Of a stretch of DNA of 64,000 bases, positions 231-61,522 are shown in pieces (position 1 is the stretch's first letter; every line of letters starts with the position of its first letter). Source of the stretch: an uncultured Acidobacteriaceae bacterium (GTDB taxonomy: Bacteria > Acidobacteriota > Terriglobia > Terriglobales > Acidobacteriaceae); the NCBI GenBank assembly GCA_963787495.1, contig CAWBDA010000004.1, positions 166,015-230,014 on the forward strand, given 5' to 3'. The notes below the pieces were generated by a model. It was given only the letters and a program-made list of their open reading frames with translations. It made no database searches and had not been told where the DNA came from. Both the position numbers and the translations under genes were made by a program.

Positions 231-258
231 ACCGAGTTGCGAGTACCGAGTACCGAGT
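231..258. repeat. tandem heptad array ACCGAGT TGCGAGT ACCGAGT ACCGAGT
   Basis: Four consecutive 7-nt units read directly, starting 9 nt after the rho stop. No inverted partner is seen nearby. Confidence 0.8.
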
Positions 259-366
259 AAGAAGCCGGCAGTTCCGGCACTTGCAACTATTTCCAGTTCG
301 TCCCAGCCGAAAGTGTCATACTTTAGGAACGGGCATGTAGGTCCACGCCCGGTTTTCGAGGACACT

Positions 367-3748: not shown

Positions 3749-4089
3749 AATGAGTCCCTCCAAATAGATAGCGTTTCAGGAATATATAAACGTGCTTAGG
3801 CACTTTCTTCCGGCGAAGCATCCCAGGTCCGAGCACGCCCAGTGCAGCTTACGGGGGATTCAGTTGCCGGAATTCCGAACACGCTTCCACCGCAAACCTT
3901 CAACGGAGAGTTGGAGTTTGGCCGCGTCGGAATTTGCGCCTGGACTGGCTGGAGATCAAGACTGCGCTCCGGGCATCCCAGTGCAAAACATGCGTTTATA
4001 ACATGTTGGGAGGACAAGGGTCAATCGGGCGGGGGACGGCGTAGTGGGCCAGTTTGCCGTGCGGGACGGAAAAATCGTCGAGCTTCGCT

Positions 4090-4221: not shown

Positions 4222-6009
4222 CTACTGCGGATAGGTGGTCGGAATTACCTGGTTGATCTTCAAAATATCCCAAGATCCTAGTCCGGTGACATAGTCGTAT
4301 CCCGGGAGGGCAGTGTATAAACCGTTGCCGCCGAGGATAGCGTCGTTGAAATCGGTACTGCTCGGAGTCGGACCCCCGTTCGCAAGTTGATAGATCAGTG
4401 GTCCAGCGAAGCCGAGTTTGTTGCTATGCGAGGTTTCAATTCGCGCCCATGATCCCATGGCTAACGGCGAGGACAGACTAGTTCCGCCGACGAGCGTGGC
4501 CGTGCCGTCGACGAAGATGTTGGCCGCGCAGATGGCCACTTCGGCACCCCCAGCACACATCGAGACATCGGGCACACCCCGGTCGCCGACCTCAGAGCTG
4601 GGAACGATAGGCAGCGTGCCCGATCCCGTGTACGCCTGCCAGAATGGAGAGGTCTCGAAATAGCTGGGTCCGCCGCCGCTGAAATCAGCGGCCGTCTCGA
4701 AGTCGTAGGTGTAATCGGTATTCGTAAACAGATAGGTTCCGCCAACCGCGATCACGTAAGGCGACGAGGCCGGATAGGCTGTGTCGGGCGGTCCAGACAA
4801 AGGTACCCCGTTGGTTCCTTCTACCGGGCAAGCTGAGCCTTGATCGCCGGACGAGGCAAATGCGGTTATGCCCTGCAGCGCCGCTTCCCCAAATAACTCA
4901 TCATCCAGAAGCATCGAGCCGTCGATATAGGGAAAGAATTCGCACTCGCCGAATGACATATTAAAGGCCTTTACCTGGTTGCTGGTTACTGCTTTGTTAA
5001 TGGCCAGGCCGAGGTCGGAATCGGTCATCGAGGTGGCTACATAGAAATAGAGATGTGAGACCTGTTGCGCGATTCCGGTCGAGGTCTGGGAATCGAGATC
5101 CCACTCATCCGCACCACTCGTGTCCGGGCTCGCGATGCCGGCGTTCACAACGGTTACGGGAACTTGCGGCAGGCTGTATGTCGTCTCATAAGTCCGCAGA
5201 TCTTTGACGACCTGGGTGAGATCGCCTTCGGCGATGATGCCCACCGCCGTGGACTTCCCTGTGGGAAAGTTTTTTGCCGGACAGTTGGGATTGTCCGCCG
5301 GACACGCCGCGTCATAACTTATCTGATACTGCTGCGGGGTAAACGTCTCGTTAGAAACGTCGGGAGTTGGACACTGAGGCGGTGTGCAGGGCACGGTTTG
5401 CCGGCCAGTATTCAGATGGGCCAAGTCGGAGTGCAGTCTCGCAATGTTGTTGAGACCGAGGACAGCCAGCACGGCGCCGGAAAGCGAGGCGGGGACTTGC
5501 GCGTCCGAAGAGTTGGCGAAGACGGTGGCGCCGTTCAGTGAGTATTGAGATAACGAGGTATTGAACGCCGCTTCGGCATTGGCGGCGGTTCCATCGGCTT
5601 CTACAAGAAGCTGATTGTCGGCAACGGTTACGTTGGTAAATCCGTTGCTGGTGAGGTAGCTCTCGACCGCCTGCACTTGCGCCGCTGTTGGCCCGAACTG
5701 TTGAACGAACTGCTGGACGGAAAGTGCGGTTCCGTTGAGCGAATCGCCCGGCGTGAGCATGCGTTTGAGGGTGGGTTGGACCTGATTTGCATTTTGTTCC
5801 TGTAAACCTACAACAATGTGAATAGATGTGGAGGGAGCCAAAGCTCCAATCAGAGTCAGATTGGATACAGTCTGCACCGGATATGCTTTGGTAGCGGTGG
5901 AGACCCAGCCTTGCGCACTGGCAAGGGTTGAGGTGAATACTGCGAGAAGCGCCATCTGGAGCACTGCAAACTTGGCAGTCCTGTTGGTACGACGAGCGGG
6001 CGTAGTCAT
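4222..6009 (-). CDS. secreted S53 (sedolisin/kumamolisin-like) serine peptidase with pro-domain
   Basis: Signal peptide ending LASAQG and an N-terminal activation-domain-like region. C-terminal GGTSLSSPLAMG fits the sedolisin SGTSxxxP serine motif. ATG 6009 is preceded by GGAG. Confidence 0.85.
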   Translation of the reverse strand: MTTPARRTNRTAKFAVLQMALLAVFTSTLASAQGWVSTATKAYPVQTVSNLTLIGALAPSTSIHIVVGLQEQNANQVQPTLKRMLTPGDSLNGTALSVQQFVQQFGPTAAQVQAVESYLTSNGFTNVTVADNQLLVEADGTAANAEAAFNTSLSQYSLNGATVFANSSDAQVPASLSGAVLAVLGLNNIARLHSDLAHLNTGRQTVPCTPPQCPTPDVSNETFTPQQYQISYDAACPADNPNCPAKNFPTGKSTAVGIIAEGDLTQVVKDLRTYETTYSLPQVPVTVVNAGIASPDTSGADEWDLDSQTSTGIAQQVSHLYFYVATSMTDSDLGLAINKAVTSNQVKAFNMSFGECEFFPYIDGSMLLDDELFGEAALQGITAFASSGDQGSACPVEGTNGVPLSGPPDTAYPASSPYVIAVGGTYLFTNTDYTYDFETAADFSGGGPSYFETSPFWQAYTGSGTLPIVPSSEVGDRGVPDVSMCAGGAEVAICAANIFVDGTATLVGGTSLSSPLAMGSWARIETSHSNKLGFAGPLIYQLANGGPTPSSTDFNDAILGGNGLYTALPGYDYVTGLGSWDILKINQVIPTTYPQ

Positions 6010-6330
6010 GGAAATTTCTCCTTGTCTTTAATCTCTAGTGACGAGCGGCAGATCAAACCGGGCTCTGACAGGAGTGGCAGATGGTTCCGCGGTCCGAGGA
6101 GGTGCCCTTCGCATGCGCACTGTGTGTGCTGTAGGTTCGCTTTCGCTCGCACAGGAAGGGGCATATCGGATATGGCGCGAACGAACGAATGACGCTCTGC
6201 ACCGCTATCCAGAAGCTTTAGTACCAATTGCATTCGCGGAATGATCGTACGGAGCCCTGGTGGCGTCGATAGGGACGACAGCGTAGATTTCAGCGGTTAA
6301 ACCTGTAGGCAGAGCCGCGGCATTGGCCAC

Positions 6331-6390
6331 CAAACTCTTGTGCACGAAACTCTTGTGCACGAAACTCTTGTGCACGAAACTCTTGTGCAC
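6331..6390. repeat. 15-bp tandem repeat x4 (GAAACTCTTGTGCAC; first unit starts with C)
   Basis: Read directly: one variant unit plus three perfect units. Each unit contains the palindrome GTGCAC. Lies 16 nt downstream of the comM stop. Confidence 0.95.
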
Positions 6391-6405: not shown

Positions 6406-7953
6406 CTAGGTCCAATAGGTGCGGTCGAGGGAGCGGTACTGGATGGCCTCGGCGATGTGTTTGGGCTCGATGGAGGCCGTCTCTTCGATGTCGGCTATCG
6501 TGCGGGCTACTTTCAGGATGCGGTCGTGAGCGCGGGCGCTTAGGCCCTGCTGGGTCATCGCGCGCTCGAGCAGGCGCTCGCAGTCGGCGGAAAGTTCGCA
6601 GAAGGTGCGGATGTGGCGGGATGACATTTGGGCGTTGCAATAAATCTTTTCCCGGGATGAGGCGAAGCGTTCGAGCTGCTTTTGGCGGGTGCGCATCACT
6701 CGCTCGCGGATTTTTGCCGAACTTTCTGGTTCGTTGGTGGAGCGCATTTCCTTGTAGTTCACGGCGGGGACGTCGATGTGGATATCGATGCGGTCCATGA
6801 GTGGGCCTGAGATTTTCGAGATGTAGCGCTGGATCATTGGTGTTGTGCACTGGCACTCGCGGGTGCGATCGTTGCGGAAGCCGCAGGGGCAGGGATTCAT
6901 GGCGGCCGCGAGCATGAAGCGGGCGGGAAACGTCAGCGCCATGGCGGCGCGGGCGATGGTGACCGAGCCATCTTCGAGGGGCTGGCGCAGGACTTCGAGG
7001 ACGTTACGGGGGAATTCGGGGAGTTCGTCGAGGAAGAGCAGGCCGTTGTGGGAGAGCGAGACTTCGCCAGGGCGCGGGATCACGCCCCCGCCGATCAAGC
7101 CGGCGTCGGAGATGGTGTGGTGAGGGGAGCGGTAGGGTCGCTTGCCCACGAGGCCGCTGCCGGGGTCGAGCACTCCGGCTACGCTGTGAATCTTGGTGGT
7201 CTCGAGGGCTTCTTCGAACGTAAGCGGTGGCAGGATAGTGGGCATGCGCTTGGCGAGCATGGTTTTCCCGGAGCCGGGCGGGCCGATCATGAGGATGTTA
7301 TGGCCTCCGGCGCAGGAGATTTCGATGGCGCGCTTGGCGGTTTGCTGGCCGCGGACGTCTTTGAAGTCGACCAGAAATTCTTGCGATTCTTTTAGGAGCG
7401 CGTCACCATCGGCTTTTAGCGGGACGATTCCGTTTCCTGAGTTCACGAAGTGGATTACGTCGAGGAGGGAACGGACGGGGTAGACATCGACTCCGCCGAC
7501 CATGGCGGCTTCGCGAGCGTTGGCTTCGGGCACGACCAGCTTTGAAATCTTGCGGGTGCGGGCTTCTAGCGCGATGGGGAGCGTACCTCGAATGCCGCGC
7601 ACTCCGCCGTCCAGTGACAACTCGCCGATGAAGAGGCAGTCCTCGATCGTCTTCTGCGTGAGGCCTCCGTAGGCGCCTACGATCCCTAACGCCATTGGTA
7701 AGTCGAATCCTGAGCCTTCTTTCTTTATGTCGGCGGGGGCGAGGTTGATGGTGATGTGGGTGGGAGGGATGTCGTAGCCGCAGTTTTTCAGGGCAGCGCG
7801 GACACGGTCGCGGCTCTCGCGGACTGCGGCATCGGGAAGACCGACGGTGTGGAAGTGGTCCTGGTCGGTTTTGATGCCGGAGCAGTCGACTTCCACCTGA
7901 ATGATGTTGGCGTCGATGCCGTAGACCGCGGCGCTGAGGGTCTTGTAGAGCAT
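6406..7953 (-). CDS. comM: YifB/ComM family Mg-chelatase-like AAA+ ATPase
   Basis: [13 protein letters not shown] Walker A and LFLDELPEF Walker B, with a Lon-like N-terminal domain. Start taken at [12 protein letters not shown] (ATG 7953, GGAGC upstream) rather than the longest ORF. Confidence 0.9.
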
Positions 7954-11267: not shown

Positions 11268-12464
11268 CTAATCTCTTTCCACGGCCATAGCCACGGCATT
11301 GCCTCCGCCCAGGCACAGCGCGGCAATTCCACGTTTCACATTGCGGCGGGTCATTTCATAGATCAGAGTGACGAGCACACGCGCGCCACTGGCTCCGATG
11401 GGGTGTCCGATGGCGACTGCGCCGCCGTTCACATTCACTTTATTGGGATCGAGGCCAAGCTCGCGCATCACGCCCAAGGCCTGCACTGAGAAAGCTTCGT
11501 TCAGTTCGTAGAGATCAACGTCGTCCTTTTCCCATCCCGTCTTTTCCCAGATGGTGCGCACCGCGCCGACCGGAGCCATCATCACCCACTTGGGCTCGAC
11601 GCCGCTGGTAGCTTGCGCCACAATTCGAACCATGGGCTGGACTCCGAGTTCTTTCGCCCGTCGCGCGCTGGTCACCACCACAGCCGCCGCTCCGTCATTT
11701 ACTCCGGGAGCATTTCCGGCGGTCACGGTGCCATCTTTCTTGAACGCGGGCTTCAGCGAACGGAGGACTTCGATCGTCGTATCTTCACGCGGGGATTCGT
11801 CTTTCTCGAAGAGGACTGGGGCTTCGCCTTTTTTCTTCGCAGGAATCTCTACCGGGACAATCTGCGACTTGAAGCGGCACTCCTTCATGGCGGCGACTGC
11901 TTTGCGGTGAGAGTGCACGGCGAATTCATCCTGCTCTTCGCGCGTGATGCCATATTTTTCAGCCACGTTCTCGCCGGTGATTCCCATGTGGTAGTCGTTG
12001 TAAATATCCCAGAGGCCGTCGTGCACCATCGAATCGATCACTTTGCCGTTGCCGAGGCGGTATCCCCCACGGGCTTGCGGGAGCAGGTAGGGAGCGTTGG
12101 TCATCGATTCCATACCGCCCGCCACGACGATTGAGCTGTTTCCGGTCTGCACTGCTTGCGCTGCGAGAGCCACTGCTTTCAATCCTGAGCCACAAACTTT
12201 GTTGATTGTCATGGCACCTGTCGCCGGCGACAATCCTCCGAAAATTGCGGCCTGCCGCGCCGGATTTTGTCCTAAGCCGGCGGGAAGGACGTTGCCCATA
12301 ATGCATTCGTCGACTTGATCGGAGCTTAATCCGGCGCGCTTCACGGCCTCGCGCACCACGATCGCGCCGAGCTGTGGGGCACTCAAGTCGGTGAGACTGC
12401 CCTGGAACTTTCCCACTGCCGTACGACAACCGGAAATGATGACAACCTCATCGAAAGCCGCCAT
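11268..12464 (-). CDS. acetyl-CoA C-acetyltransferase (thiolase II)
   Basis: [11 protein letters not shown] active-site Cys region, [12 protein letters not shown], and C-terminal [13 protein letters not shown] thiolase signature. Confidence 0.93.
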
Positions 12465-12734
12465 TGATCATGCTCCCGCGAAGATTTCGCATTGTCATTA
12501 TAGATGCAGCAGGGCGCGAAAACGATGGGCTTCTGCGGACTGGTTGCGTTGCCTTTCGACCCATCGCACACAGACAAGCGAGAGACGCGCGGCAGATCAG
12601 TGCCGTCCTTTTCTCTTTTGCGAATGCATGCGCGGAGTGTGTTTTGAACGGAGCAACATTAGAATTTTCTGTTTTGCTCTCGTCTCTCCATGACTTTGGT
12701 ACAACACCGCCCGTTCGGTGCGTGCATTTTTTTC

Positions 12735-12763
12735 TTGACTTCATTTTTCATTAACTCTATACA
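12735..12763 (+). promoter_or_regulatory. sigma70-like promoter: TTGACT, 17 nt spacer, TATACA(AT)
   Basis: Near-consensus -35 (12735-12740) and -10 (12758-12763) with a 17-nt spacer, inside a conspicuously AT-rich stretch. Confidence 0.55.
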
Positions 12764-16701: not shown

Positions 16702-16829
16702 TCAGTTCTCAGTTCTCAGTTCTCAGTTCTCAGGAAAGCAAAACCCGGAGGCTCGGGGCTGTCAACTTTTGGGCAGGATGACCTTCGGGAAGGCTGAGCG
16801 ACTCTACTGAGAACTGAGAACTGGGAACT
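16702..16829. repeat. inverted heptad-repeat element, CAGTTCT family
   Basis: (TCAGTTC)x4 plus TCAG at 16702-16733. CTGAGAA CTGAGAA CTGGGAA CT at 16807-16829. The arms are complementary with a 73-nt spacer. Confidence 0.95.
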
Positions 16830-25618: not shown

Positions 25619-25705
25619 TCTACTCACCTCAAGATATGCAGGCCAATACAAGGCGCTATGCAATCTCGAAGCGAAGAGGCTGTCTGTAGTAACCTCGTCT
25701 AAGCT

Positions 25706-25727
25706 GGCCACTGACCACCGACCACTG
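25706..25727. repeat. orphan heptad arm GGCCACT GACCACC GACCACT G (CAGTGGY family)
   Basis: Three units with no inverted partner within the intergenic region. Ends 4 nt before ATG 25732. Confidence 0.85.
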
Positions 25728-27665: not shown

Positions 27666-29162
27666 ATGCTTCTTCCGCGCACACTGGGCGAATTGCGCCG
27701 CAGCACCTTTTCTGAAGAACGCCTGCGCACCCGCCGCGTGAAGGACGAACTCCGCGACAACCTCATCGCCCGCCTGCGTCACCACGACGATTCCGGCATC
27801 TTCCCTGGCATCGTCGGCTACGACGACACCGTCGTGCCCCAAATCGTGAATGCCGTCCTCTCGCGCCACAATTTCATTCTGCTCGGCCTGCGCGGCCAGG
27901 CCAAAAGCCGCATCCTGCGGGCTCTTACCACGCTGCTCGATCCTCACATGCCTTACCTCACGGGATGCGAGATTCGTGACAATCCCTACGCTCCCATCTG
28001 CCGCCGCTGCCGCGAAGAAGTCGCGCGGCTCGGCGATGCCGCTCTCATTTCTTATCTAACTCCCGACGACCGCTACGTGGAAAAACTCGCCACGCCCGAT
28101 GTAACCATCGCCGACCTGATCGGCGACATCGACCCCATCAAAGCCGCCCGCGGCGGCCACGAACTGTCGAGCGAGTTCACCGTTCACTACGGCCTGCTTC
28201 CCCGCGCCAATCGCGGCATCTTCGCCATCAACGAACTTCCCGACCTCGCCGGGAAAATTCAGGTCGGCCTGTTCAACATTATGCAGGAAGGCGACGTGCA
28301 GATTAAGGGCTATCCCATCCGCCTCCCGCTCGACGTGGCCATCGTCTTCAGCGCCAATCCCGAGGACTATACCGCTCGCGGCAAAATCATCACCCCGCTC
28401 AAAGACCGCATCGGCTCCGAGATTCGCACGCACTACCCGGCGACGGTCGATGAAGGCATCGCCATCACCGCGCAGGAAGCCTGGACCAGCCGCAACGGCC
28501 ATCCCATGCATCTACCCACCTACATTCAGGAAGTAATCGAGCGCATCGCCTTTGCTGCCCGCGAAGACAAGAAAATCGACAAGCGTAGCGGCGTAAGCCA
28601 ACGCCTGCCGATCTCCGCAATGGAGAACGTAATCTCCAACGCCGAGCGCCGCGCGCTGCGCAATGACGAAAAACTCGTGGTGCCACGCGTCAGCGACGTC
28701 TACGCCGCCCTACCCGCCATCACCGGAAAACTGGAACTCGAATACGAGGGCGAAATGAAAGGAGCCGACCACGTCTCCCGCGAACTGATCCGCGCTGCCA
28801 TCGCGAAAACGTACGATGAGTACTTCACCGGCGCTAACGTGCAGCAGATCGTGCAGTGGTTTGATTTAGGCGGCGAGATTCACCTCTCCGATTCCATTGC
28901 CGCGTTGGAAGCGCTAGAAAACCTGAAAGAAATTCAGGGCCTGATCGACAAGCTAGGCCCGCTAGGAGTCTCGCAGAAGGAAAGTCCGGAGCAACAGGTC
29001 TCCGCCGCCGAATTCATCCTCGAAGGCCTGCACGCCCACAAGCGCATCGGCCGCAACGAAGAACGAGTCTTCAAAGCCGGAGAGAAAAAGCCCGAGCCAC
29101 AGCGCGAAAAAAGTTTCGAGAAGGAAGAACCGCCGTATCGGCAGAGAAGGCAGTTTAATTAA
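27666..29162 (+). CDS. MoxR/ChlI-like AAA+ ATPase with deviant Walker motifs
   Basis: GLRGQAKS in the Walker A position and RGIFAINELPDL in the Walker B position, plus a QEGDVQIKG...VFSANPEDY MoxR-like core. Paired with a vWA gene. Confidence 0.8.
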   Translation: MLLPRTLGELRRSTFSEERLRTRRVKDELRDNLIARLRHHDDSGIFPGIVGYDDTVVPQIVNAVLSRHNFILLGLRGQAKSRILRALTTLLDPHMPYLTGCEIRDNPYAPICRRCREEVARLGDAALISYLTPDDRYVEKLATPDVTIADLIGDIDPIKAARGGHELSSEFTVHYGLLPRANRGIFAINELPDLAGKIQVGLFNIMQEGDVQIKGYPIRLPLDVAIVFSANPEDYTARGKIITPLKDRIGSEIRTHYPATVDEGIAITAQEAWTSRNGHPMHLPTYIQEVIERIAFAAREDKKIDKRSGVSQRLPISAMENVISNAERRALRNDEKLVVPRVSDVYAALPAITGKLELEYEGEMKGADHVSRELIRAAIAKTYDEYFTGANVQQIVQWFDLGGEIHLSDSIAALEALENLKEIQGLIDKLGPLGVSQKESPEQQVSAAEFILEGLHAHKRIGRNEERVFKAGEKKPEPQREKSFEKEEPPYRQRRQFN

Positions 29163-29234
29163 GTGGTCAGTGGCCAGTGGCCAGTCAAAGCCATTAGGCG
29201 TCAGGTTTTACTGATCACTGACCACTGGCCACTG
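29162..29234. repeat. inverted heptad-repeat element, CAGTGGY family
   Basis: AGTGGTC AGTGGCC AGTGGCC AGTC at 29162-29186. ACTGATC ACTGACC ACTGGCC ACTG at 29210-29234. 23-nt spacer. Confidence 0.95.
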
Positions 29235-35927: not shown

Positions 35928-36033
35928 GCTCTTTGCATTGCACGCCAGGCACCACTACCGCTGACATTGAAAAGACGTGGGTTAGACTGCGACGCCGATG
36001 CGCTGTTCCCATTACAGAACGGAAAAGCAGCTC

Positions 36034-36115
36034 TCAGTTCCCAGTTCTCAGTTCTTGGTTCTCAGCAAGACCACCTTTGCCAACCTGAGAACTGGGAACT
36101 GAGAACAGAGAACTG
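36034..36115. repeat. inverted heptad-repeat element, CAGTTCT family
   Basis: TCAGTTC CCAGTTC TCAGTTC TTGGTTC TCAG at 36034-36065. CTGAGAA CTGGGAA CTGAGAA CAGAGAA CTG at 36085-36115. 19-nt spacer. Confidence 0.95.
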
Positions 36116-47173: not shown

Positions 47174-48580
47174 ATGAGCCACGAAAAAGTACTGATTGTC
47201 GAGGACGAAGAGAACGAACGCACGGGTCTGGCTGAGTTGGTTTTTTCCTGGGGATATCGGGCCGAAACTGCCCGGGACGGTATGGAAGGCCTGGAGAAGG
47301 CGGCGCAATGGGTCCCCTCCATTGTAATCACCGATCTCAAGATGCCGCGCATGGGGGGCATCGAACTGCTCGAACGGCTGGGCGAGCAATCCGAGGCCAT
47401 GGCCGTGATTCTGGTGACGGCGCAGGGGACAATCGACAGCGCAGTGCAGGCCATGCGCATGGGCGCGTATGACTACATCACCAAACCCATCGATACCAAC
47501 CGCCTGCGCACCATGCTGCAAAATGCGTCCACCCTGGTGGGAACTCGCGCCGAGCTGGAGACCGCCCGCCGCAAGCTGCGGGATTCCGGCTCGCTGGGCA
47601 CACTCCGCGGAGCGTCGCGCAAGATGCAGGAGATTTTCCGGCTCATCGAGCTGGTTTCACCCAGCACCGCGTCAGTGCTGATTACCGGAGCCAGCGGCAC
47701 AGGAAAGGAGTTAGTGGCTCGCACCATCCATCAACTGAGTCCGCGCCGCGAGCGGCCCTTCGTCGCCATCAACTGCGCGGCCATTCCTGAAACGCTGATC
47801 GAAAGCGAGATCTTCGGCCACGAAAAAGGCGCCTTCACCGGAGCTCTGGAGCGGCGCACCGGCTGTTTCGAGCTAGCCGAAGGCGGGACGATCCTGCTCG
47901 ACGAAATTGGGGAAATGCCGGTAGGAACCCAGGCCAAGCTGCTGCGCGTGCTCGAGGATCACAAGCTGCGCCGCTTGGGGAGCAAAGTGGAAACCTCGGT
48001 GGATGTGCGCGTGCTGGCTGCCACGAATAAAGTTCCCGACGATGCTGTCGCCAGCGGGGAATTGCGCAGCGATCTCTACTACCGGCTCAACGTGTTCAAC
48101 ATCCACATGCCTCCCTTGCGAGAACATAAGGAAGATATCGCCGATCTGGTGCAGCTGCTTCTGTCGGAAATGAGCGCCAAGCACTCCCGTAAGGTTGCTG
48201 CCGTCAGCGAGGCCGTGCTGAATCAGTTCAACAATTATTCCTGGCCGGGAAACGTCCGCGAATTGCGCAATACGATCGAACGCGCCGTAATCGTCTGCGA
48301 CAGCGGCATGATCGAAACCAAACACCTGCCTCCTGGGTTCGGCCACGCGCCCCTGCGCACGGCCGCGAATGATCCGGATGCGGTGCGTCTGGGCGTGGGC
48401 ACCACCGTCGGTGAAGCGGAAAAGATGCTGATCCTTAAAACCCTGGAGGCCACCAGCAACAACAAGACGAAAGCCGCGGAAATTCTCGGCATCAGCCTGA
48501 AAACCCTGCATAATAAGCTAAAGGAGTACGGCGGCAACGCCCCGGAAGCGGCCTCTGACAAAGAAGAGCAACCGCAGTGA
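47174..48580 (+). CDS. sigma54-dependent response regulator (NtrC family)
   Basis: Receiver VLIVEDEENERTGL, GASGTGKE, GAFTGA, C-terminal HTH KTKAAEILGISLKTLHNKLK. Confidence 0.9.
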   Translation: MSHEKVLIVEDEENERTGLAELVFSWGYRAETARDGMEGLEKAAQWVPSIVITDLKMPRMGGIELLERLGEQSEAMAVILVTAQGTIDSAVQAMRMGAYDYITKPIDTNRLRTMLQNASTLVGTRAELETARRKLRDSGSLGTLRGASRKMQEIFRLIELVSPSTASVLITGASGTGKELVARTIHQLSPRRERPFVAINCAAIPETLIESEIFGHEKGAFTGALERRTGCFELAEGGTILLDEIGEMPVGTQAKLLRVLEDHKLRRLGSKVETSVDVRVLAATNKVPDDAVASGELRSDLYYRLNVFNIHMPPLREHKEDIADLVQLLLSEMSAKHSRKVAAVSEAVLNQFNNYSWPGNVRELRNTIERAVIVCDSGMIETKHLPPGFGHAPLRTAANDPDAVRLGVGTTVGEAEKMLILKTLEATSNNKTKAAEILGISLKTLHNKLKEYGGNAPEAASDKEEQPQ

Positions 48581-48675
48581 TCAGTGTCCAGTGGTCAGTG
48601 GCCAGCGGAAAACTTTGCACCACGTCGTCACCTTCCCCACATCCGCTTAGACTGACCACTGACCACTGACCACTG
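48575..48675. repeat. inverted heptad-repeat element, CAGTGGY family
   Basis: CAGTGAT CAGTGTC CAGTGGT CAGTGGC CAGCGG at 48575-48608. (ACTGACC)x3 plus ACTG at 48651-48675. Confidence 0.95.
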
Positions 48676-50631: not shown

Positions 50632-51483
50632 ATGAATCTGGCCGCAATCCTCGGTTTTTGTCTGTTGAGCGCAGGTTGGTTACCGCCAGCCGCCCGCGGA
50701 ACTGTGCCGCAAACCGCAGGCCAGCCGCCCGCAGCGACCTCCTCAGACTCGTCCACTCAGCAGAGCCAGAGCCCCTCCGCGTCTCAACCACAGGCGCCCC
50801 CGGCGCAAAGCGCCGAGCCTACACAACCTGCGCCTTCTCCAACCAACGAAACTCCGAATTCCCCAGCGCAGGCCAAGCCGACTCCAGCAAAGCCCCGGCA
50901 TCATAAGAAAGCCGATTCGAATTGCTCGAACGCCCCAACTGCGCTGAATACTGCAGTAGGCAAGCCCGCCGATTCGCCGAATTCAGCGGATGCCGGCGCG
51001 GACAATGCATCGAACAACGCTGGCTCGATCAATCCCGAGTCGAACAGTCCTGAGTCGAACAATGCCGCGTCGAACAATGCCGCGTCGAACAATCCTGGGT
51101 CGACCGATCCTGGGTCAACCAATTCTGGGTCAACCAATTCTGGATCAAAGAATCCAGACTCTGCCGCCCTGAAACCTTGTCCGCCACCCAAAAAAGTTGT
51201 CCGCAACGGAGGATCGAACGAACCCAAGGTTCAACTAACCGGCGGCACAACTGCCCAACAGGCCGCAAATAAGTCCTCGACCGAGCAACTCAGAGCCGCC
51301 ACCGAAGAGAACCTGAAGAAAGCCGCAGGACTCCAACTCAACCCCAGCCAGAAGGAGATGGTAAGCCAGATCAAGCAGTTCATGGAACAATCAAAAGCAG
51401 CCGTCGCCGCAGGGGACCTGGAGCGCGGCCACAATCTCGCCCTGAAAGCTCAATTGCTTTCCGACGAGTTGGTCAAACCCTGA
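50632..51483 (+). CDS. secreted low-complexity (P/Q/S/N-rich) protein with pentapeptide repeats
   Basis: Signal peptide MNLAAILGFCLLSAGWLPPAARG. Eight 15-nt units at 51031-51150 encode NxxSN-type repeats. Helical C-terminus. Confidence 0.5.
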   Translation: MNLAAILGFCLLSAGWLPPAARGTVPQTAGQPPAATSSDSSTQQSQSPSASQPQAPPAQSAEPTQPAPSPTNETPNSPAQAKPTPAKPRHHKKADSNCSNAPTALNTAVGKPADSPNSADAGADNASNNAGSINPESNSPESNNAASNNAASNNPGSTDPGSTNSGSTNSGSKNPDSAALKPCPPPKKVVRNGGSNEPKVQLTGGTTAQQAANKSSTEQLRAATEENLKKAAGLQLNPSQKEMVSQIKQFMEQSKAAVAAGDLERGHNLALKAQLLSDELVKP

Positions 51484-53681: not shown

Positions 53682-53769
53682 AGGTCACCTCAGCCTCGGC
53701 GAGAATGGATCTCCACATCCGAACAGCAGGCGAATCCTAGCTCCGAATGCGTGTGGAAGCAAGGAGAAC

Positions 53770-53854
53770 CAGTGGTCAGTGTCCAGTGGTCAGTGATCAA
53801 TAAAGCCCTCAATCAACGAGAGCGTTTCACTGGCCACTGGCCACTGACCAATGG
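53770..53854. repeat. inverted heptad-repeat element, CAGTGGY family
   Basis: CAGTGGT CAGTGTC CAGTGGT CAGTGAT CA at 53770-53799. CACTGGC CACTGGC CACTGAC CAATGG at 53828-53854. 28-nt spacer. Confidence 0.95.
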
Positions 53855-57596: not shown

Positions 57597-57992
57597 CTAG
57601 ATCGTCCGCGGCACGTTAAACGCGGACGACTTCAGTCCCAGCAGACTCCGGTCCGTCACCTGGTCGAGCGAAGTACGCAAGCGGCGGTTGTCGTCATCCT
57701 CGAGCGCGACAAAGCGAAACGCCTGCAGCACACAATTCGTAGCCTTCTGCATGGGAGTTAGTATCTCCGCCATGCCGCGCACCGGGCCCGATTGCGTATG
57801 AAAGGCAACTTCGACGAAATCGCCCTCGGCCAGCGGACGCGGCAGTAACAGCAGTCCGCCCGTCGCCGAAATGGTTTGGAGTTTTGCTTTAGCGTGCCGG
57901 CCGTCTTCTAATCGAATCGCAGCCAGAACAGATGCTCCCAGCTGGACTCGGGCCGCGCGCCGCGAAGGATGCGGTTGGGGGAAGTGGGTCAT
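57597..57992 (-). CDS. PilZ-like domain protein
   Basis: RRAAR (RxxxR) followed about 25 aa later by TISATGG (approximate D/NxSxxG). Confidence 0.55.
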   Translation of the reverse strand: MTHFPQPHPSRRAARVQLGASVLAAIRLEDGRHAKAKLQTISATGGLLLLPRPLAEGDFVEVAFHTQSGPVRGMAEILTPMQKATNCVLQAFRFVALEDDDNRRLRTSLDQVTDRSLLGLKSSAFNVPRTI

Positions 57993-58201: not shown

Positions 58202-59764
58202 TCACCAACGCACAAGCTTTTCCCGCGCCGCTTCCTGAGTTCGTCGAAACGCTTCAGGAAGCCCTTGCAGAAGGTCAGTCGCCACCAGCGAATGCTCGCC
58301 CACTCTTTCCCGCATCACATCGCCGGCAAGTCCGTGCAGATGCACGGCGGCCAGCACCGCCAGAAAAGCGCTAGTCGAATGCTGCGCGATCATTCCCGCA
58401 ACCATCCCCGTCAAGATGTCCCCCGTGCCCCCGGTAGCCATGCCGGGATTGCCCGTCGTATTCACCCAGGCTTCACCGTCCGGCTGCACCACCAGCGTGC
58501 GATGCCCCTTCAGCGCCACGATAAGCTCGTGCTCGCGCGCGAACTTCCGCGCCGTACCCAACCGATCTTTCTGCACATCAGCAATGGTGCATCCGGCCAG
58601 CCGAGCCATCTCGCCCGGATGAGGCGTGATCACCAGCGTCCGCCCCGCGCCCTTCAATTCACCCGCGCGTCCCTCAAAAGCATTCAGGCCGTCAGCGTCC
58701 AAAACCACGGGGAGCCGAAGTCGCACAACTAAACTCCTCACCAGCTCTGCAGTCTGCGTATCCCGCGAAATCCCCGGCCCAATCGCGAGCACGGTCTTCC
58801 CTTCCGTCAACTCCTCGATGCGATCCAGCGCGTTTTTCGAGATCGTGCCCACATCAGTCTCGGGCAAGGGCTCAGTCATTAACTCGGTATGAAATCCGGC
58901 CACGGTTCCCAAAGCCGACTTCGCCGTTGCCACCGTCGAGAGTCCCGCGCCCGCGCGAAGCACAGCCATTCCCGCCATGGCCGCCGCTCCAGCCTTTCCG
59001 AGCGCCCCGCCGACCACCAGCACATGCCCGTAATTTCCCTTGTTCGACTCTGCCGGACGCGGCCCGATCAACCCTCCAATATCACGCGCCGTGATCACAT
59101 TCAGTCGCAGCGCCGAAACAATCGCCTCCTCCGGCGAACCGATGCCAGCCACAACAGTGGGCCCCCCAGTCAACATGCTGAACACATGAGCCGGACGAGG
59201 CGCAGTAAAAGTAACAACCTCATCGGCCCGGGCAATCGTCCCAGCTTGCGGACCCATCGCGTCCGCATCTGCGCCCGAAGGAATGTCTACCGCGATCACT
59301 GGAATCTGACTCGCATTCATGATCGCGATCGCTTCGGCATAGAGCCCGCTCACCGGAGGTTTGAAACCCGTGCCAAGCACCGCATCGATGTACAGGTCGG
59401 CCTCCAGCGAGAGCCGCACCTGCTCGCTCCTCAACTCTTCGCTGGAATGCACGGCGATTGCAGGGGACGGCAGTTTGCCAAACATGACAGCCGCATCGCC
59501 GCGCAAATCGGCGGAGTCCGCCAGCACGATCACCTGCACTTTCTTTCCTCGATCGTGCAGCCGCCGCGCCACCACAAAACCATCACCGCCGTTATTCCCT
59601 CTGCCGCAGAAAACCACAATCCGTCCAGCCGCAGCATGGCGCGAGAGCACGTAGTCAGCGACCGCCGCACCGGCGTTCTCCATCAGCGTGAGCGAAGGTA
59701 CCCCAAAGCGCTCGCTGGTAGCGCGGTCAATAGCTCGCATCTCTTCAGCAGAAACGATTTTCAT
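58202..59764 (-). CDS. nnr: bifunctional NAD(P)H-hydrate epimerase/dehydratase
   Basis: N-terminal YjeF_N MKIVSAEEMRAIDRATSERFGVPSLTLMENAG and C-terminal kinase-like GGTGDILTGMVAG. Confidence 0.9.
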   Translation of the reverse strand: MKIVSAEEMRAIDRATSERFGVPSLTLMENAGAAVADYVLSRHAAAGRIVVFCGRGNNGGDGFVVARRLHDRGKKVQVIVLADSADLRGDAAVMFGKLPSPAIAVHSSEELRSEQVRLSLEADLYIDAVLGTGFKPPVSGLYAEAIAIMNASQIPVIAVDIPSGADADAMGPQAGTIARADEVVTFTAPRPAHVFSMLTGGPTVVAGIGSPEEAIVSALRLNVITARDIGGLIGPRPAESNKGNYGHVLVVGGALGKAGAAAMAGMAVLRAGAGLSTVATAKSALGTVAGFHTELMTEPLPETDVGTISKNALDRIEELTEGKTVLAIGPGISRDTQTAELVRSLVVRLRLPVVLDADGLNAFEGRAGELKGAGRTLVITPHPGEMARLAGCTIADVQKDRLGTARKFAREHELIVALKGHRTLVVQPDGEAWVNTTGNPGMATGGTGDILTGMVAGMIAQHSTSAFLAVLAAVHLHGLAGDVMRERVGEHSLVATDLLQGLPEAFRRTQEAAREKLVRW

Positions 59765-59769
59765 AAGAA

Positions 59770-59939
59770 CAATGGCCAGTGTTCAGCGGCGAGTGATCAG
59801 TAAAACAAGTTAACGGCATAGGCTTTGTAACGGTCACTGACCACTGGCCACTAACTTTCGACTATAAAACAAAGGCCCTCCGCGCTGTGCGAAGGGCGTT
59901 TGACTTTGCTGGCCACTGGCCACTGATCACTGGCCACTG
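59770..59939. repeat. three-arm heptad-repeat element, CAGTGGY family
   Basis: CAATGGC CAGTGTT CAGCGGC GAGTGAT CAGT at 59770-59801. GGTCACT GACCACT GGCCACT at 59832-59852. GGCCACT GGCCACT GATCACT GGCCACT G at 59911-59939. Confidence 0.95.
59865..59898 (-). terminator. rho-independent terminator of the APC permease gene
   Basis: Minus strand: GCCCTTCGCACAGCGCGGAGGGC hairpin followed by CTTTGTTTTA. Lies about 30 nt after the stop. Confidence 0.65.
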
Positions 59940-61522
59940 CTTTTCAGCGCCTGAACCCGGCTGTGCTTCACGCTGTAGGTGAAGTAGACAATCAAGCCGA
60001 TGGCAAGCCAGCCGCCCAACCGGATCCAGTTCCACTTTCCAAGGTTCAGCATCATGTATCCGTTCGCGAGCACCCCCAGGATCGGCACCAGAGGCACCCA
60101 CGGCGTACGAAATGGCCGCGGCTGGCTGGGATTCGTATAGCGCAACACCATCACGGAAACCGACACGATCACAAAGGCCAGTAGAGTGCCGATGTTCACC
60201 ATCTTCCCAATTTCGTCAATCGGCGTCACGCTGCCCACAATCGCGGCCAGCAAGCCCACCAGAATCGTATTCTTCCAGGGCGTACGAAATCTGGGATGAA
60301 TGTCGGCGAAGAACTTCTTGGGCAACAGTCCATCATTCGCCATTGAATAAAGCACGCGCGTCTGCCCCAACAGCATTACCAGCATAACGCTGGTCAGCCC
60401 AGCCAAAGCCCCCAGCGTAATGATGTTCGCGGCAATGGGCAGACCCCGATCCAGGAATGCGACCGCGACCGGGGCTTCGATATTAATCTGTTGCCAGTGC
60501 ACCATTCCCGTCAGCACGCCCGCTACGGCGATGTACAAGACCGTACAGATCGCCAACGAGGCAATCATGCCGATCGGCAAGTCGCGCTGAGGATTCTTCG
60601 CCTCCTGCGCAGTGGTCGAAACTGCATCGAAACCAATGTAGGCGAAGAATATGTAGGCAGCGCCCTGCCAGATCCCGTTCATGCCGTGCGGCGCGTAGGC
60701 ATGCCAGTCCATCCCCCAGTTGGCGCGGTTGATGTAGTGAGCGCCCAGCCCGATCACGAAAAGTACGACCGACACCTTGATCACAACGATCGTCGCATTA
60801 AACCGCGCACTCTCTTTGATGCCGACGACGAGAATCGCTGTGATCACGAGCGCGATCAGGAAGGCGGGAAGGTTGAAACCGATCTCGGCTCCGAACAGAT
60901 GTGGCGCTCCCAAAAGATCGTGCGCCCGCTGCATCAGTTCCGGAGATTGAGTGCCGATGATCGCAGTCACTTTATCGAGGAACGCTTGCGAGGTTGTCCC
61001 CAGCGTCGGATCCGCAGCCTGTGCCATCTGCCGGGCAACGACCTTTTCTGCTGTCTTTAGCGCCGTCCAGTGATCGTAGGCCAGCCACAATGGCATGTGG
61101 ATATGAAAGATGTTGAGCAGTTCGATAAAGTGGTTCGACCAACCCGAAGACACCGTGCTGGCGCCCATTGCGTATTCCAGCGTGAGGTCCCAACCGATAA
61201 TCCAGGCCAACAGCTCACCCAAGGTAGCGTAGGCATAAGTGTAAGCGCTGCCCGCTAGCGGAATCATGGCCGCGAACTCCGCATAACAAAGACCGGCAAA
61301 TGCGCAACCCAAACCAGAAAGAACAAACGACAGTGAAAGCCCGGGACCGGCATACTGCGCTCCCAGCCCCACCATCACAAAGATCCCTGCTCCGATGATC
61401 GCGCCCACCCCCAGCGCGGTGAGCTGGAAAACTCCTAACGTGCGCTTGAGGCTGTGTTCGCCGGTCTCGCGAGCCTCCTCCATCAGCAGGTTCAGGGGCT
61501 TGGTTGCGAACAGATTTGCCAT
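59927..61522 (-). CDS. APC-superfamily amino acid permease (CAT-like, about 14 TM)
   Basis: LGVFQLTALGVGAIIGAGIFV... AAGGAG before ATG 61522. The last four codons and the stop lie inside a heptad arm. Confidence 0.9.
   Translation of the reverse strand: MANLFATKPLNLLMEEARETGEHSLKRTLGVFQLTALGVGAIIGAGIFVMVGLGAQYAGPGLSLSFVLSGLGCAFAGLCYAEFAAMIPLAGSAYTYAYATLGELLAWIIGWDLTLEYAMGASTVSSGWSNHFIELLNIFHIHMPLWLAYDHWTALKTAEKVVARQMAQAADPTLGTTSQAFLDKVTAIIGTQSPELMQRAHDLLGAPHLFGAEIGFNLPAFLIALVITAILVVGIKESARFNATIVVIKVSVVLFVIGLGAHYINRANWGMDWHAYAPHGMNGIWQGAAYIFFAYIGFDAVSTTAQEAKNPQRDLPIGMIASLAICTVLYIAVAGVLTGMVHWQQINIEAPVAVAFLDRGLPIAANIITLGALAGLTSVMLVMLLGQTRVLYSMANDGLLPKKFFADIHPRFRTPWKNTILVGLLAAIVGSVTPIDEIGKMVNIGTLLAFVIVSVSVMVLRYTNPSQPRPFRTPWVPLVPILGVLANGYMMLNLGKWNWIRLGGWLAIGLIVYFTYSVKHSRVQALKSSGQ

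What the first reader, a model, noticed from the sequence alone, without database searches (positions are those of the whole stretch)
59770..59939. A three-arm heptad element allows mutually exclusive pairings around an intrinsic terminator
On the minus strand the order is:
- the permease's last four codons plus TGA, inside arm 3 (59911-59939)
- a conventional hairpin plus U-tract terminator (59898-59865)
- arm 2 (59832-59852)
- a 30-nt loop
- arm 1 (59770-59801)
- 5 nt
- the nnr ATG (59764)

Arms 2 and 3 have the same polarity and are both complementary to arm 1. Arm 1 could therefore pair locally with arm 2, or long-range with arm 3 while enclosing the terminator. This resembles an attenuator or antiterminator topology.
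Basis: partly seen in the sequence, partly recalled or inferred. Interest (0 to 1): 0.65.

Follow-up and report, generated by a model that had tools for sequence, protein, structure and literature searches.

The report
Dispersed heptad-repeat hairpin, not an attenuator
The three arms are real, but they are one compound copy of a family of 7-base-repeat hairpins found between genes across this soil acidobacterium and its relatives, ending right against start codons that lack a ribosome-binding site, and nothing in their layout lets them control the terminator they surround.

Summary
On the minus strand, a CAGTGGC-type heptad array covers the permease stop codon (arm 3). It is followed by a conserved intrinsic terminator, a second array (arm 2), a 30-nt loop, a complementary array (arm 1), 5 nt, and the nnr ATG. 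Arm 1 can pair with arm 2 or with arm 3.

The attenuator reading fails for three reasons:
- Neither pairing touches the terminator stem.
- Arm 1 is transcribed 65-100 nt after the U tract.
- The three-arm layout is not conserved in orthologs.

The arms belong to a dispersed family. Six other sites in the window, and many in related Terriglobia genomes, carry tandem heptads, mostly as inverted pairs with a fixed polarity (GT-rich arm 5', AC-rich arm 3'; 34 of 36). The 3' arm ends 0-14 nt before a start codon with no Shine-Dalgarno. The 5' arm often starts at the upstream stop codon.

At a given site the hairpin is present or absent among orthologs, and its heptad flavour differs between sister lineages.

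The closest published parallels are the TAACTGA start-codon-proximal heptamers of Beggiatoaceae and cyanobacteria, and the Haemophilus hmw 5'-UTR heptamer hairpin.

The most likely role, which is inferred, is a structured Shine-Dalgarno-less leader acting on nnr translation or mRNA fate. A neutral simple-sequence-repeat origin is a serious rival.

The parts
59909..59941 (-). Arm 3. A GT-rich heptad array (minus strand GCAGTGGC CAGTGAT CAGTGGC CAGTGGC CAG) that overlaps the last permease codons (S-G-Q) and the TGA stop at 59929-59927.
   Evidence: period 7, 4.4 copies. The same array sits on the ...SGQ* end of the permease in L003, L004, L005, L013, L019, L020, L023 and L033.
59866..59897 (-). 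Intrinsic terminator of the permease gene: stem 59897-59875, then the T tract 59873-59866.
   Evidence: 9 pairs, 7 G-C, 5-nt loop, tail CTTTGTTTTA. The hairpin folds at -17.6 kcal/mol and is intact in all folds. The sequence GGCCCTCCGC-N-GCGGAGGGCC TTTTTGTTTTATAGTC is conserved in orthologs. It occurs only once in the window.
59861..59866 (-). TATAGT, a -10-like hexamer that directly follows the T tract. It is conserved as TATAGT or TAAGAT in orthologs. Its role as a promoter is inferred only.
   Evidence: The sigma-70 consensus scan found no full promoter here.
59832..59853 (-). Arm 2. A GT-rich heptad array (TAGTGGC CAGTGGT CAGTGAC C) that forms the 5' arm of the local hairpin.
59802..59831 (-). 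The 30-nt loop of the local hairpin. It has no similarity to the loops of the other elements.
59770..59801 (-). Arm 1. An AC-rich (sense-strand) degenerate heptad array, ACTGATC ACTCGCC GCTGAAC ACTGGCC ATTG. It is the 3' arm and lies next to the start codon.
   Evidence: period 14, 1.9 copies.
59762..59769 (-). The pyrimidine spacer TTCTT plus the nnr ATG. There is no Shine-Dalgarno motif.
48575..48675 (+). Family member between an NtrC-type response regulator and a histidine kinase. The stop codon (CAG TGA) lies in the 5' arm, and the 3' arm ends 6 nt before the ATG.
   Evidence: -46.9 kcal/mol, z = -4.5.
29162..29234 (+). Family member. The upstream TAA stop abuts the 5' arm, and the 3' arm ends 3 nt before the ATG of a VWA-domain gene.
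   Evidence: -42.7 kcal/mol, z = -6.4.
53769..53854 (+). Family member between divergent genes. The 3' arm ends 29 nt before the ATG of an MFS transporter gene.
   Evidence: -66.9 kcal/mol, z = -9.6.
16702..16829 (-). Family member with a second heptad flavour (CAGTTCT / AGAACTG), lying between dnaJ and rsmE. It has a 72-nt loop, and the 3' arm ends 3 nt before the ATG.
   Evidence: -60.7 kcal/mol, z = -4.4. The scan found no terminator in the loop.
36028..36115 (-). Family member of the CAGTTCT flavour. The 5' arm begins 4 nt after the stop codon of a sigma-54 activator gene, and the next ATG is 100 nt further on.
   Evidence: -51.2 kcal/mol, z = -5.6.
25702..25727 (+). A single AC-rich array with no inverted partner. 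It ends 4 nt before the ATG of a TPR gene.

Best explanation
The region is a compound copy of a clade-wide family of heptad-repeat hairpins.

What a typical copy looks like:
- It is made of tandem 7-nt units arranged as an inverted pair.
- The GT-rich array (CAGTGGC-like) is always on the 5' side and the AC-rich array (GCCACTG-like) on the 3' side.
- It fills a Shine-Dalgarno-less spacer. The 5' arm starts at or next to the upstream stop codon, or just after a terminator. The 3' arm ends 0-14 nt before the next start codon.

At this locus:
- Arm 3 with arm 1 has the canonical stop-to-start span.
- Arm 2 is an extra GT-rich array lying inside the loop.
- The conserved permease terminator is also enclosed in that loop.

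Shown:
- The repeat family, its polarity and its position relative to start and stop codons.
- Its restriction to non-coding DNA.
- Its presence or absence, and its change of flavour, among orthologs.
- The independence of the terminator from every alternative pairing.

Inferred:
- In RNA, the AC-rich, G-poor array plus a short pyrimidine spacer is the SD-independent leader of nnr.
- The GT-rich arm folds back on that leader, so the start codon sits at the foot of a long imperfect stem.
- The element therefore acts on nnr translation initiation or on mRNA processing. It could mask the leader. Where the 5' arm carries the upstream stop codon, a terminating ribosome could open the stem. It does not act on termination at 59866.
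For: Family and significance.

Non-coding restriction:
- All seven CAGT/ACTG sites lie in the 11% of the window that is non-coding.
- They overlap genes only by 1, 6 and 13 nt at gene ends.

Polarity:
- 34 of 36 hairpins in the window plus 80 genome loci have the GT-rich arm on the 5' side.
- In an independent set of IMG/VR contigs, 15 arrays have a GT-rich partner upstream and 0 have one downstream.

Position:
- Of 129 period-7 arrays in 1.22 Mb, 45 end 0-14 nt before the start of an ORF of at least 80 aa when read in the AC-rich direction. Beyond 15 nt the distribution is mostly 1-3 arrays per 5-nt bin.
- Arrays sit before nnr, before the 332-aa MKAFRN gene and before the histidine kinase in many genomes. 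Some lack an inverted partner (L022, L052, L054, L018).

No Shine-Dalgarno in the spacers.

Orthology at nnr:
- After the terminator, the spacer is either 15-43 nt without a hairpin or 85-146 nt with one.

Orthology at the response regulator-kinase junction:
- Most orthologs at about 77% amino-acid identity or more have an 88-152-nt hairpin running from CAG TGA to 2-10 nt before the ATG; a few in that range (L090, L101, L103) have short, array-free spacers.
- Most more distant orthologs have 17-65-nt spacers with no arrays.

Terminator: it is untouched in all folds.

Published precedents:
- Heptamers with an ACTGA core end a few nt before start codons that lack an RBS (PMC4679880).
- A transcribed heptamer array forms one arm of a 5'-UTR hairpin that controls expression through RNase III (PMC12721329).
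Against: - No expression or probing data exist. The soil metagenome and metatranscriptome contigs only showed that the array is a dispersed repeat.
- Orthologs without the element also lack an SD. The array is therefore not needed for SD-less initiation and may simply be tolerated there.
- Downstream genes share no functional theme.
- Loops are unrelated, copy number and flavour vary, and sister lineages differ.
- RNAalifold gives no net covariation signal: the term is +0.6 and only 5 of 25 pairs show any double change.
- The arms mismatch periodically at the variable heptad positions.
- Two window copies (53769 and 36028) are 29 and 100 nt from the start codon.
- The stop-codon coupling idea cannot apply to copies that follow a terminator or lie between divergent genes.
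Confidence: 0.5

Rival explanations
1. These are neutral or selfish simple-sequence-repeat hairpins with no function. Heptad arrays arise by replication slippage. The two arms are kept alike by hairpin-templated (quasi-palindrome) correction. Copies survive only where they do no harm, which means short SD-less spacers. The three arms are an accident of two neighbouring expansions.
For: - The hairpin is present or absent at the same site among orthologs.
- Flavour switches between sister lineages.
- Loops are unrelated.
- Arms mismatch periodically and show no covariation signal.
- Downstream genes share no functional theme.
- Arrays run into the last codons of upstream genes and supply the stop codon (...Q* = CAG TGA), as expected for unconstrained expansion.
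Against: - Slippage does not predict a fixed 5'-GT / 3'-AC polarity (34 of 36, and 15 to 0). Because a palindrome reads the same on both strands, the polarity also cannot come from a replication-strand bias.
- The hairpin persists at the response regulator-kinase junction in most orthologs across 77-90% protein identity.
- The outer ends coincide with the stop and start codons, rather than leaving the 17-65-nt ancestral spacer as flanks.
Confidence: 0.25
2. These are mRNA-fate elements comparable to REP/BIME hairpins or RNase III sites. The long imperfect stem would block 3' exonucleases, be cut by RNase III, or act as a weak terminator through the pyrimidine/U run after the 3' arm. This would set the ratio of upstream to downstream gene expression.
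For: - Stems are 20-30 bp with energies of -31 to -67 kcal/mol.
- The 3' arms are followed by CTT, TTTCCC, CTTTTCC or TTTT.
- One copy (36028-36115) sits 4 nt after a stop codon but 100 nt from the next start codon.
- There is an experimental precedent: the hmw heptamer hairpin is processed by RNase III.
Against: - This does not explain unpaired AC-rich arrays at the same start-codon-proximal position.
- It does not explain the polarity rule.
- The terminator scan flags none of these hairpins as terminator-like; its only such site on the coding strand at the nnr locus is the separate conventional terminator.
- No RNA-end data are available.
Confidence: 0.15
3. The three arms form a riboregulator in which the choice between arm 2:arm 1 and arm 3:arm 1 controls termination at the enclosed terminator, acting as an attenuator or antiterminator.
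For: Both pairings are thermodynamically possible and mutually exclusive, and the long-range one is favoured by about 30 kcal/mol. The same three-arm order occurs in L005, L019 and L033.
Against: - The terminator stem takes part in neither alternative.
- Arm 1 is made after the terminator.
- There is no Rfam match.
- The arrangement is not conserved, and arm flavours do not match in L004 and L023.
- The arms are dispersed repeats.
Confidence: 0.04
4. This is a mobile element of the REP/RAYT or MITE kind, inserted as a unit by a transposase.
For: The elements are dispersed, extragenic and palindromic. They appear as about 70-110-nt indels at orthologous sites. En-bloc flavour replacement between sister lineages could reflect re-insertion.
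Against: - Copies share no full-length consensus. Only the heptad arms are alike, and the loops are unrelated.
- No GTAG head, terminal inverted repeat with target-site duplication, or conserved internal sequence was seen.
- Arm length varies in whole heptads, as expected for slippage.
- The loops at the kinase site resemble one another across orthologs, which points to vertical descent.
Confidence: 0.04

Closest known systems
TAACTGA intergenic heptamer direct repeats of marine Beggiatoaceae, some Cyanobacteria and Bacteroidetes (MacGregor 2015, PMC4679880)
   Same: - Tandem 7-nt units share the ACTGA core. The window has CCACTGA/G and GAACTGA.
- They are oriented toward, and end a few nt before, start codons.
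- A Shine-Dalgarno is usually absent.
- Some overlap the end of the upstream ORF.
- Downstream genes share no functional theme.
- Function is unknown, and translational control has been proposed.
   Different: - There, 169 of 170 sets are direct repeats and only one is inverted. Here most are inverted pairs that form long hairpins with a fixed GT-to-AC polarity.
- The units here are GC-rich and come in several flavours (CAGTGGC, GTCGTTG, CAGTTCT, GATTTCA, TAGGGAT).
- The phylum is different (Acidobacteriota).
Haemophilus influenzae hmw 5'-UTR (ATCTTTC)n hairpin processed by RNase III (PMC12721329)
   Same: A transcribed heptamer array forms an arm of a long 5'-UTR hairpin just upstream of the coding region, and it acts post-transcriptionally.
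   Different: - It is a single contingency locus.
- The other arm is a non-repeat G-rich segment.
- Repeat number drives phase variation of an adhesin.
- Nothing here shows repeat-number switching or RNase III cleavage.
Cyanobacterial STRR heptanucleotide repeats and start-codon-proximal heptamers in Nostoc (preprint 10.1101/2022.06.06.494920; STRR unit sequences recalled from memory)
   Same: Dispersed tandem heptamers lie in intergenic DNA near start codons or promoters. Deleting them changed reporter output, and no binding partner has been identified.
   Different: - The units differ (TTTTGAA in the preprint).
- No hairpin architecture with a polarity rule is described.
- The effects reported were mainly on promoter activity and regulator binding.
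REP/BIME extragenic palindromes of enterobacteria (from general knowledge)
   Same: They are dispersed palindromes in intercistronic and 3' regions that can stabilise upstream mRNA and affect expression when close to a stop codon.
   Different: - REPs have a conserved sequence of about 35 nt with a GTAG head and are linked to RAYT transposases.
- Here only the heptad periodicity and core are shared, the loops are unrelated, and the 3' arm abuts start codons.
Transcription attenuators and antiterminators (trp leader, T-box, riboswitch expression platforms; from general knowledge)
   Same: They have mutually exclusive helices near an intrinsic terminator.
   Different: In those systems the alternative helix uses nucleotides of the terminator stem and is available before the terminator is complete. 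Here neither condition holds.

Membership tests
Transcription attenuator / antiterminator | The alternative helix shares nucleotides with the terminator stem, so that one excludes the other. | tested here: not met
   The terminator hairpin (59897-59875) is intact in the MFE and in folds with arm 1, arm 2 or arm 3 blocked.
Transcription attenuator / antiterminator | The competing segment is transcribed before or while the terminator forms. | tested here: not met
   Arm 1 (59801-59770) lies 65-96 nt downstream of the end of the U tract at 59866.
Transcription attenuator / antiterminator | There is a sensing module (leader peptide, ligand aptamer, tRNA or protein site). | tested here: not met
   Rfam gave no hit at gathering score. 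At E <= 1 the only match was a chance miRNA hit of 18 bits. No leader ORF lies between the arms.
Transcription attenuator / antiterminator | The alternative pairings are conserved in orthologs. | tested here: not met
   Arm 3 occurs without a hairpin (L013, L020). Arm flavours do not match in L004 and L023. The hairpin occurs without arm 3 in L001, L006, L007, L009, L017 and L032. The long-range helix is the MFE only in the window and L019.
Intrinsic (Rho-independent) terminator (59897-59866 only) | A G+C-rich stem-loop is followed directly by a U tract downstream of a stop codon. | tested here: met
   (9 pairs, 7 G-C, tail CTTTGTTTTA). The hairpin folds at -17.6 kcal/mol. It is conserved in orthologs. 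Function was not measured.
Start-codon-proximal heptamer repeats (TAACTGA type, PMC4679880) | Tandem 7-nt units are oriented toward, and end a few nt before, a start codon. | tested here: met
   The gaps are 3, 6, 4, 3 and 5 nt at five window sites. In the wider set, 45 of 129 arrays end 0-14 nt before a long ORF.
Start-codon-proximal heptamer repeats (TAACTGA type, PMC4679880) | No Shine-Dalgarno lies between the repeat and the start codon. | tested here: met
   The spacers are CTT, TTTCCC, TCTT, CAA and TTCTT.
Start-codon-proximal heptamer repeats (TAACTGA type, PMC4679880) | The unit is TAACTGA and the sets are direct repeats. | tested here: not met
   The units are CCACTGR, GAACTGA and CCAACGA, and most sets are inverted pairs. 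It works like this family but is not the same family.
REP/BIME | There is a conserved full-length consensus with a GTAG head. | tested here: not met
   Only the arms are similar, the loops are unrelated, and there is no GTAG head.
REP/BIME | The elements are associated with a RAYT (Y1 transposase) gene in the genome. | not tested
   The window's proteins were not all scanned, and the whole genome is not available.
MITE | There are terminal inverted repeats, a target-site duplication and a conserved internal sequence. | tested here: not met
   Neither a shared internal sequence nor a flanking duplication was seen at the six window copies.
Phase-variable SSR contingency locus | Repeat number varies within populations and switches expression. 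| tested here: inconclusive
   Copy number differs between species. The metagenome contigs gave no indel calls at this site.

The most novel reading that the evidence does not exclude
The heptad arrays could form a genome-wide post-transcriptional system in a clade of Terriglobia.
- The AC-rich (CCACUGR)n array would be an SD-independent ribosome- or protein-loading leader.
- The GT-rich array would be its cis mask.
- Free GT-rich arrays such as arm 3 would act in trans, as an anti-leader RNA or sponge, on every AC-leader mRNA. Arm 3 is carried just upstream of a conserved terminator at the 3' end of the terminated permease transcript, and it is retained in orthologs that have no complementary partner nearby.
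Probability: 0.1. Interest if true: 0.8.

Novelty: new variant of a known kind. Interest (0 to 1): 0.42.

Why it matters
Tandem heptamers next to start codons have been noted in cyanobacteria, Beggiatoaceae and Bacteroidetes without a resolved function.

Here the same kind of unit (ACTG core) appears in another phylum in a more structured form:
- It is an inverted pair with a strict 5'-GT / 3'-AC polarity.
- It spans from the upstream stop codon to the next start codon.
- It always lies in spacers without a Shine-Dalgarno.

That polarity cannot come from DNA-strand effects, so it points to a constraint read on a single strand, most simply the mRNA.

If the arrays really substitute for or gate ribosome binding, they would be a widespread SD-independent initiation or control device in abundant soil bacteria. 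They would also give clear constructs to test: array alone, array plus mask, and swapped polarity.

For annotation, the practical lesson is that such three-arm layouts around terminators in these genomes are repeat-family debris, not dedicated attenuators.

Tried and rejected
- Exact-protein look-up of Nnr to find the source contig returned nothing on record.
- Soil metagenome and one metatranscriptome run held at most 27% of the sampled 31-mers.
  - The contigs were too fragmentary to show transcript ends.
  - They only showed many unrelated flanks piling on 59909-59939. The 'joints' across the element have sides of only 23-32 nt and were judged to be alignment ambiguity or other copies.
- Rfam gave nothing at gathering score, and one meaningless miRNA hit at E <= 1.
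- I suspected a second window copy (16702-16829) also enclosed a terminator. The scan found none and the fold shows no such hairpin, so I dropped the idea.
- I considered a Shine-Dalgarno placed upstream of the 5' arm and brought to the AUG by the hairpin, as recalled for phage T4 gene 38. SD-like purine runs precede the 5' arm at only two copies (16829 and 53769), and at 53769 the run is inside the stem, so I rejected this as a general rule.
- The terminator stem as a dispersed repeat was rejected, because it occurs once in the window.
- The sigma-70 scan found no promoter in 59000-60500. The TATAGT box after the T tract therefore remains only a conserved -10-like hexamer.
- Classical covariation at the response regulator-kinase hairpin showed no net signal.
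- In the viral-contig sample, unpaired arrays showed only a 2:1 bias toward a nearby start codon (16 against 8 of 39), which is weak.
- Technical failures: a first regex for the terminator failed, one literature query was malformed, one paper was not held, and one script call returned nothing.
Full report
**Observation.** Read on the minus strand, the order is as follows.
- The amino-acid permease ORF (59927..61522, BcaP/APC family) ends AGC AGT GGC CAG TGA.
- This end lies inside a tandem heptad array (59909-59941; period 7, 4.4 copies).
- A terminator-like hairpin follows: stem 59897-59875, 9 pairs, tail CTTTGTTTTA.
- Then come TATAGT, a second array (59853-59832), a 30-nt loop, a degenerate complementary array (59801-59770), TTCTT, and the ATG of nnr.
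- nnr (58202..59764) is the bifunctional NAD(P)H-hydrate repair enzyme.

The repeat finder confirms that arm 1 is complementary to both arm 3 (40 nt at 78%) and arm 2 (14 nt at 93%). It also shows that arms 2 and 3 are direct copies. The RNA folds far better than shuffles (-83.6 kcal/mol, z = -6.4).

**The alternative pairings.**
- In the full 196-nt RNA, the minimum-energy fold is the long-range arm 3:arm 1 helix enclosing the terminator. It has about 30 expected arm 3:arm 1 pairs, against 1.3 for arm 2:arm 1.
- Blocking arm 3 gives the local arm 2:arm 1 hairpin at -53.1 kcal/mol.
- An RNA that starts after the terminator folds at -33.2 kcal/mol.
- Arm 2 pairs only with the loop-proximal half of arm 1, and that hairpin alone is modest (-30.7 kcal/mol, z = -2.6).
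- In every fold the terminator hairpin (-17.6 kcal/mol) is intact. No arm overlaps its stem, and arm 1 is synthesised 65-96 nt after the U tract.

An attenuator needs a competitor for the terminator stem that is available before the stem closes. Neither condition holds here.

**The arms are copies of a dispersed repeat.**
- CACTGGCCACTG with up to 2 mismatches occurs 38 times, against 5.7 expected.
- Chains of at least three CAGT or ACTG cores at period 7 occur 11 times, against 0 in shuffles.
- Besides this locus, the window has inverted heptad pairs at 29162-29234, 48575-48675 and 53769-53854 (CAGTGGC flavour).
- It has two more at 16702-16829 and 36028-36115 (CAGTTCT flavour), and a single array at 25702-25727.
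- They fold into long imperfect stems of -43 to -67 kcal/mol, with z from -4.4 to -9.6.
- Their loops are unrelated.
- All seven sites lie in the 11% of the window that is non-coding, and they touch genes only at their last codons.
- The downstream genes have nothing in common: VWA, histidine kinase, TPR, MFS, RsmE and Nnr.

**Rules of the family.** The organism is a Terriglobia acidobacterium near *Candidatus* Sulfotelmatobacter. The best Nnr match is 86% identical, and all 80 genome loci are MAGs, most of them labelled Acidobacteriota/Terriglobia.
- In the window plus those loci, 34 of 36 hairpins have the GT-rich array on the 5' side.
- Because a palindrome reads the same from either strand, this polarity cannot reflect a DNA-strand bias.
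- In the window plus 160 related loci (1.22 Mb), 45 of 129 period-7 arrays end 0-14 nt before the start of a long ORF when read in the AC-rich direction. Beyond that the distribution is mostly 1-3 arrays per 5-nt bin.
- The spacers before the ATG are short and pyrimidine-rich (CTT, TTTCCC, TCTT, TTCTT) and carry no Shine-Dalgarno. Other genes in the window do have GGAG-type motifs, about 16 of 56 by a crude count.
- In co-directional pairs, the 5' arm begins at or inside the upstream stop codon.
- Some genomes carry only the AC-rich array before the same start codon (L022, L052, L054, L018).
- An independent scan of IMG/VR found four or more CCACTGN units in 49 contigs. Fifteen arrays have a GT-rich partner upstream and none has one downstream. 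The bias of unpaired arrays toward a nearby start codon is only weak, 16 against 8 of 39.

**Evolution at two sites.**
- *Upstream of nnr.* Orthologs that share the permease and its conserved terminator fall into two groups. One has a 15-43-nt spacer with no hairpin (for example L025: TATAGTCGTGGGCGTT-ATG). The other has an 85-146-nt spacer that is a heptad hairpin.
- *Flavour at nnr.* The flavour is CAGTGGC in some orthologs and GTCGTTG in others. Sister lineages on an Nnr tree differ: L019 against L023, and the window against L001 and L004.
- *Arm 3.* It is present in L003, L004, L005, L013, L019, L020, L023 and L033, whatever lies downstream. This includes loci with no hairpin and loci with a non-complementary one. 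L043 has a two-arm version with only half a terminator in the loop.
- *At the response regulator-histidine kinase junction.* I examined 80 metagenome loci. Most orthologs at about 77% identity or more have an 88-152-nt hairpin. Its 5' arm supplies the last codon and the stop (...Q* = CAG TGA TCAGTGG), and its 3' arm ends 2-10 nt before the ATG. A few in that range (L090, L101, L103) have short, array-free spacers. Most more distant orthologs have 17-65-nt spacers, TAG or TAA stops and no arrays, and they also lack an SD.
- *Covariation.* RNAalifold recovers a 25-pair consensus hairpin there but no net covariation. The structure is kept by the conserved heptad cores, and the variable positions often mismatch.

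**Interpretation.** Shown:
- This locus is a compound member of a clade-wide heptad-hairpin family.
- The terminator is an ordinary, conserved permease terminator.
- The three-arm layout is neither conserved nor able to gate that terminator.

Inferred:
- The position against SD-less start codons, the occurrence of the AC-rich array alone, and the strand-independent polarity point to a constraint at the RNA level.
- The most economical model is that the AC-rich, G-poor array plus the pyrimidine spacer is (or is compatible with) an SD-independent leader. The GT-rich arm then folds onto it and holds the start codon at the foot of a long stem.
- Where the 5' arm carries the upstream stop codon, a terminating ribosome would melt it. 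This would give coupling over 75-150 nt.
- For nnr, transcripts that begin after the terminator would carry the arm 2:arm 1 hairpin at their 5' end. Such a start is possible because a conserved TATAGT follows the T tract, and predicted leaderless genes are not rare in Acidobacteria (13% of genes in three genomes, PMC3160421). However, no full promoter was found. Read-through transcripts would instead form arm 3:arm 1.
- In both cases arm 1 is paired, so the choice of partner would not by itself change access to the start site.

**Rivals.**
- A purely neutral SSR origin explains the turnover, the lack of covariation and the lack of a functional theme. It does not explain the polarity or the exact stop-to-start span.
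- An mRNA-fate role (RNase III site, exonuclease barrier or weak terminator) is plausible, and the hmw hairpin is an experimental precedent (PMC12721329).
- A REP- or MITE-type mobile element is unlikely, because the copies share no consensus beyond the heptads.

**Relation to the literature.**
- MacGregor (PMC4679880) described TAACTGA direct repeats that end a few nt before start codons lacking an RBS in Beggiatoaceae, Cyanobacteria and Bacteroidetes. The function is unknown.
- A Nostoc preprint reports regulatory effects of start-proximal heptamers.
- My searches of the held library found no description of such arrays in Acidobacteria, and none of the inverted-pair form with fixed polarity. 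Absence from that library is not proof of novelty.
- I therefore rate it a new variant of a known kind. The specific attenuator claim is not supported.

Noticed in passing
window 6328-6390: There are four near-perfect tandem copies of a 15-nt unit, CACGAAACTCTTGTG (97% matches). They lie in the intergenic region between the stop of ORF 6406..7953 (-) and the start of ORF 4222..6009 (-). They could be a set of regulator binding sites.
   Followed up: no
window 51010-51155: Repeats of 15, 30 and 45 nt lie inside ORF 50632..51483 (+). In frame they encode pentapeptide-like SNN(A/P)x and GST(N/D)x repeats.
   Followed up: partly
window 231-259: A third heptad flavour, ACCGAGT, occurs in 4.1 copies with no clear inverted partner. 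The gene context at this end of the window is uncertain.
   Followed up: no
L003 3540-3990: In the closest relative with the same layout, about 370 nt lie between the arm 2-like and arm 1-like arrays. The stretch carries a small hydrophobic ORF (MFEAMFQPWHLV..., about 65 aa). The hairpin loop can therefore hold inserted DNA.
   Followed up: partly
L043 3900-4003: This is a two-arm version. The order is TAG stop, 5' arm, a loop with only the left half of the terminator, 3' arm, CTTTTCCC, ATG. The terminator has been lost between the arrays.
   Followed up: partly
L012, L015, L021, L038, L042 (around position 4001): Where a different gene precedes nnr, the nnr start overlaps the upstream stop codon (ATGA). 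nnr therefore lacks a Shine-Dalgarno in every gene order seen.
   Followed up: partly
L085 2407-2500; L050, L053, L054 (8870-9070 or 5320-5440): Further heptad flavours form hairpins: TAGGGAT / ATCCCTA at the kinase junction, and GATTTCA / AAATCTG arrays of up to 12 copies elsewhere.
   Followed up: no
L161-L209 (IMG/VR contigs): Arrays of four or more CCACTGN units occur in 49 contigs classed as viral, with GC content from 0.32 to 0.74. Some arrays have up to about 10 units, and some are followed by a normal AAGGAG Shine-Dalgarno. The host taxa are unknown.
   Followed up: partly
window 57597..57992 (-) and 12448..12744 (-): TATAG-type -10-like hexamers lie within a few nt of the ATG (CATATAGCTT-ATG and TGTATAGAGTTAATGAAAA-ATG). 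This hints at short-leader or leaderless starts in this genome.
   Followed up: no
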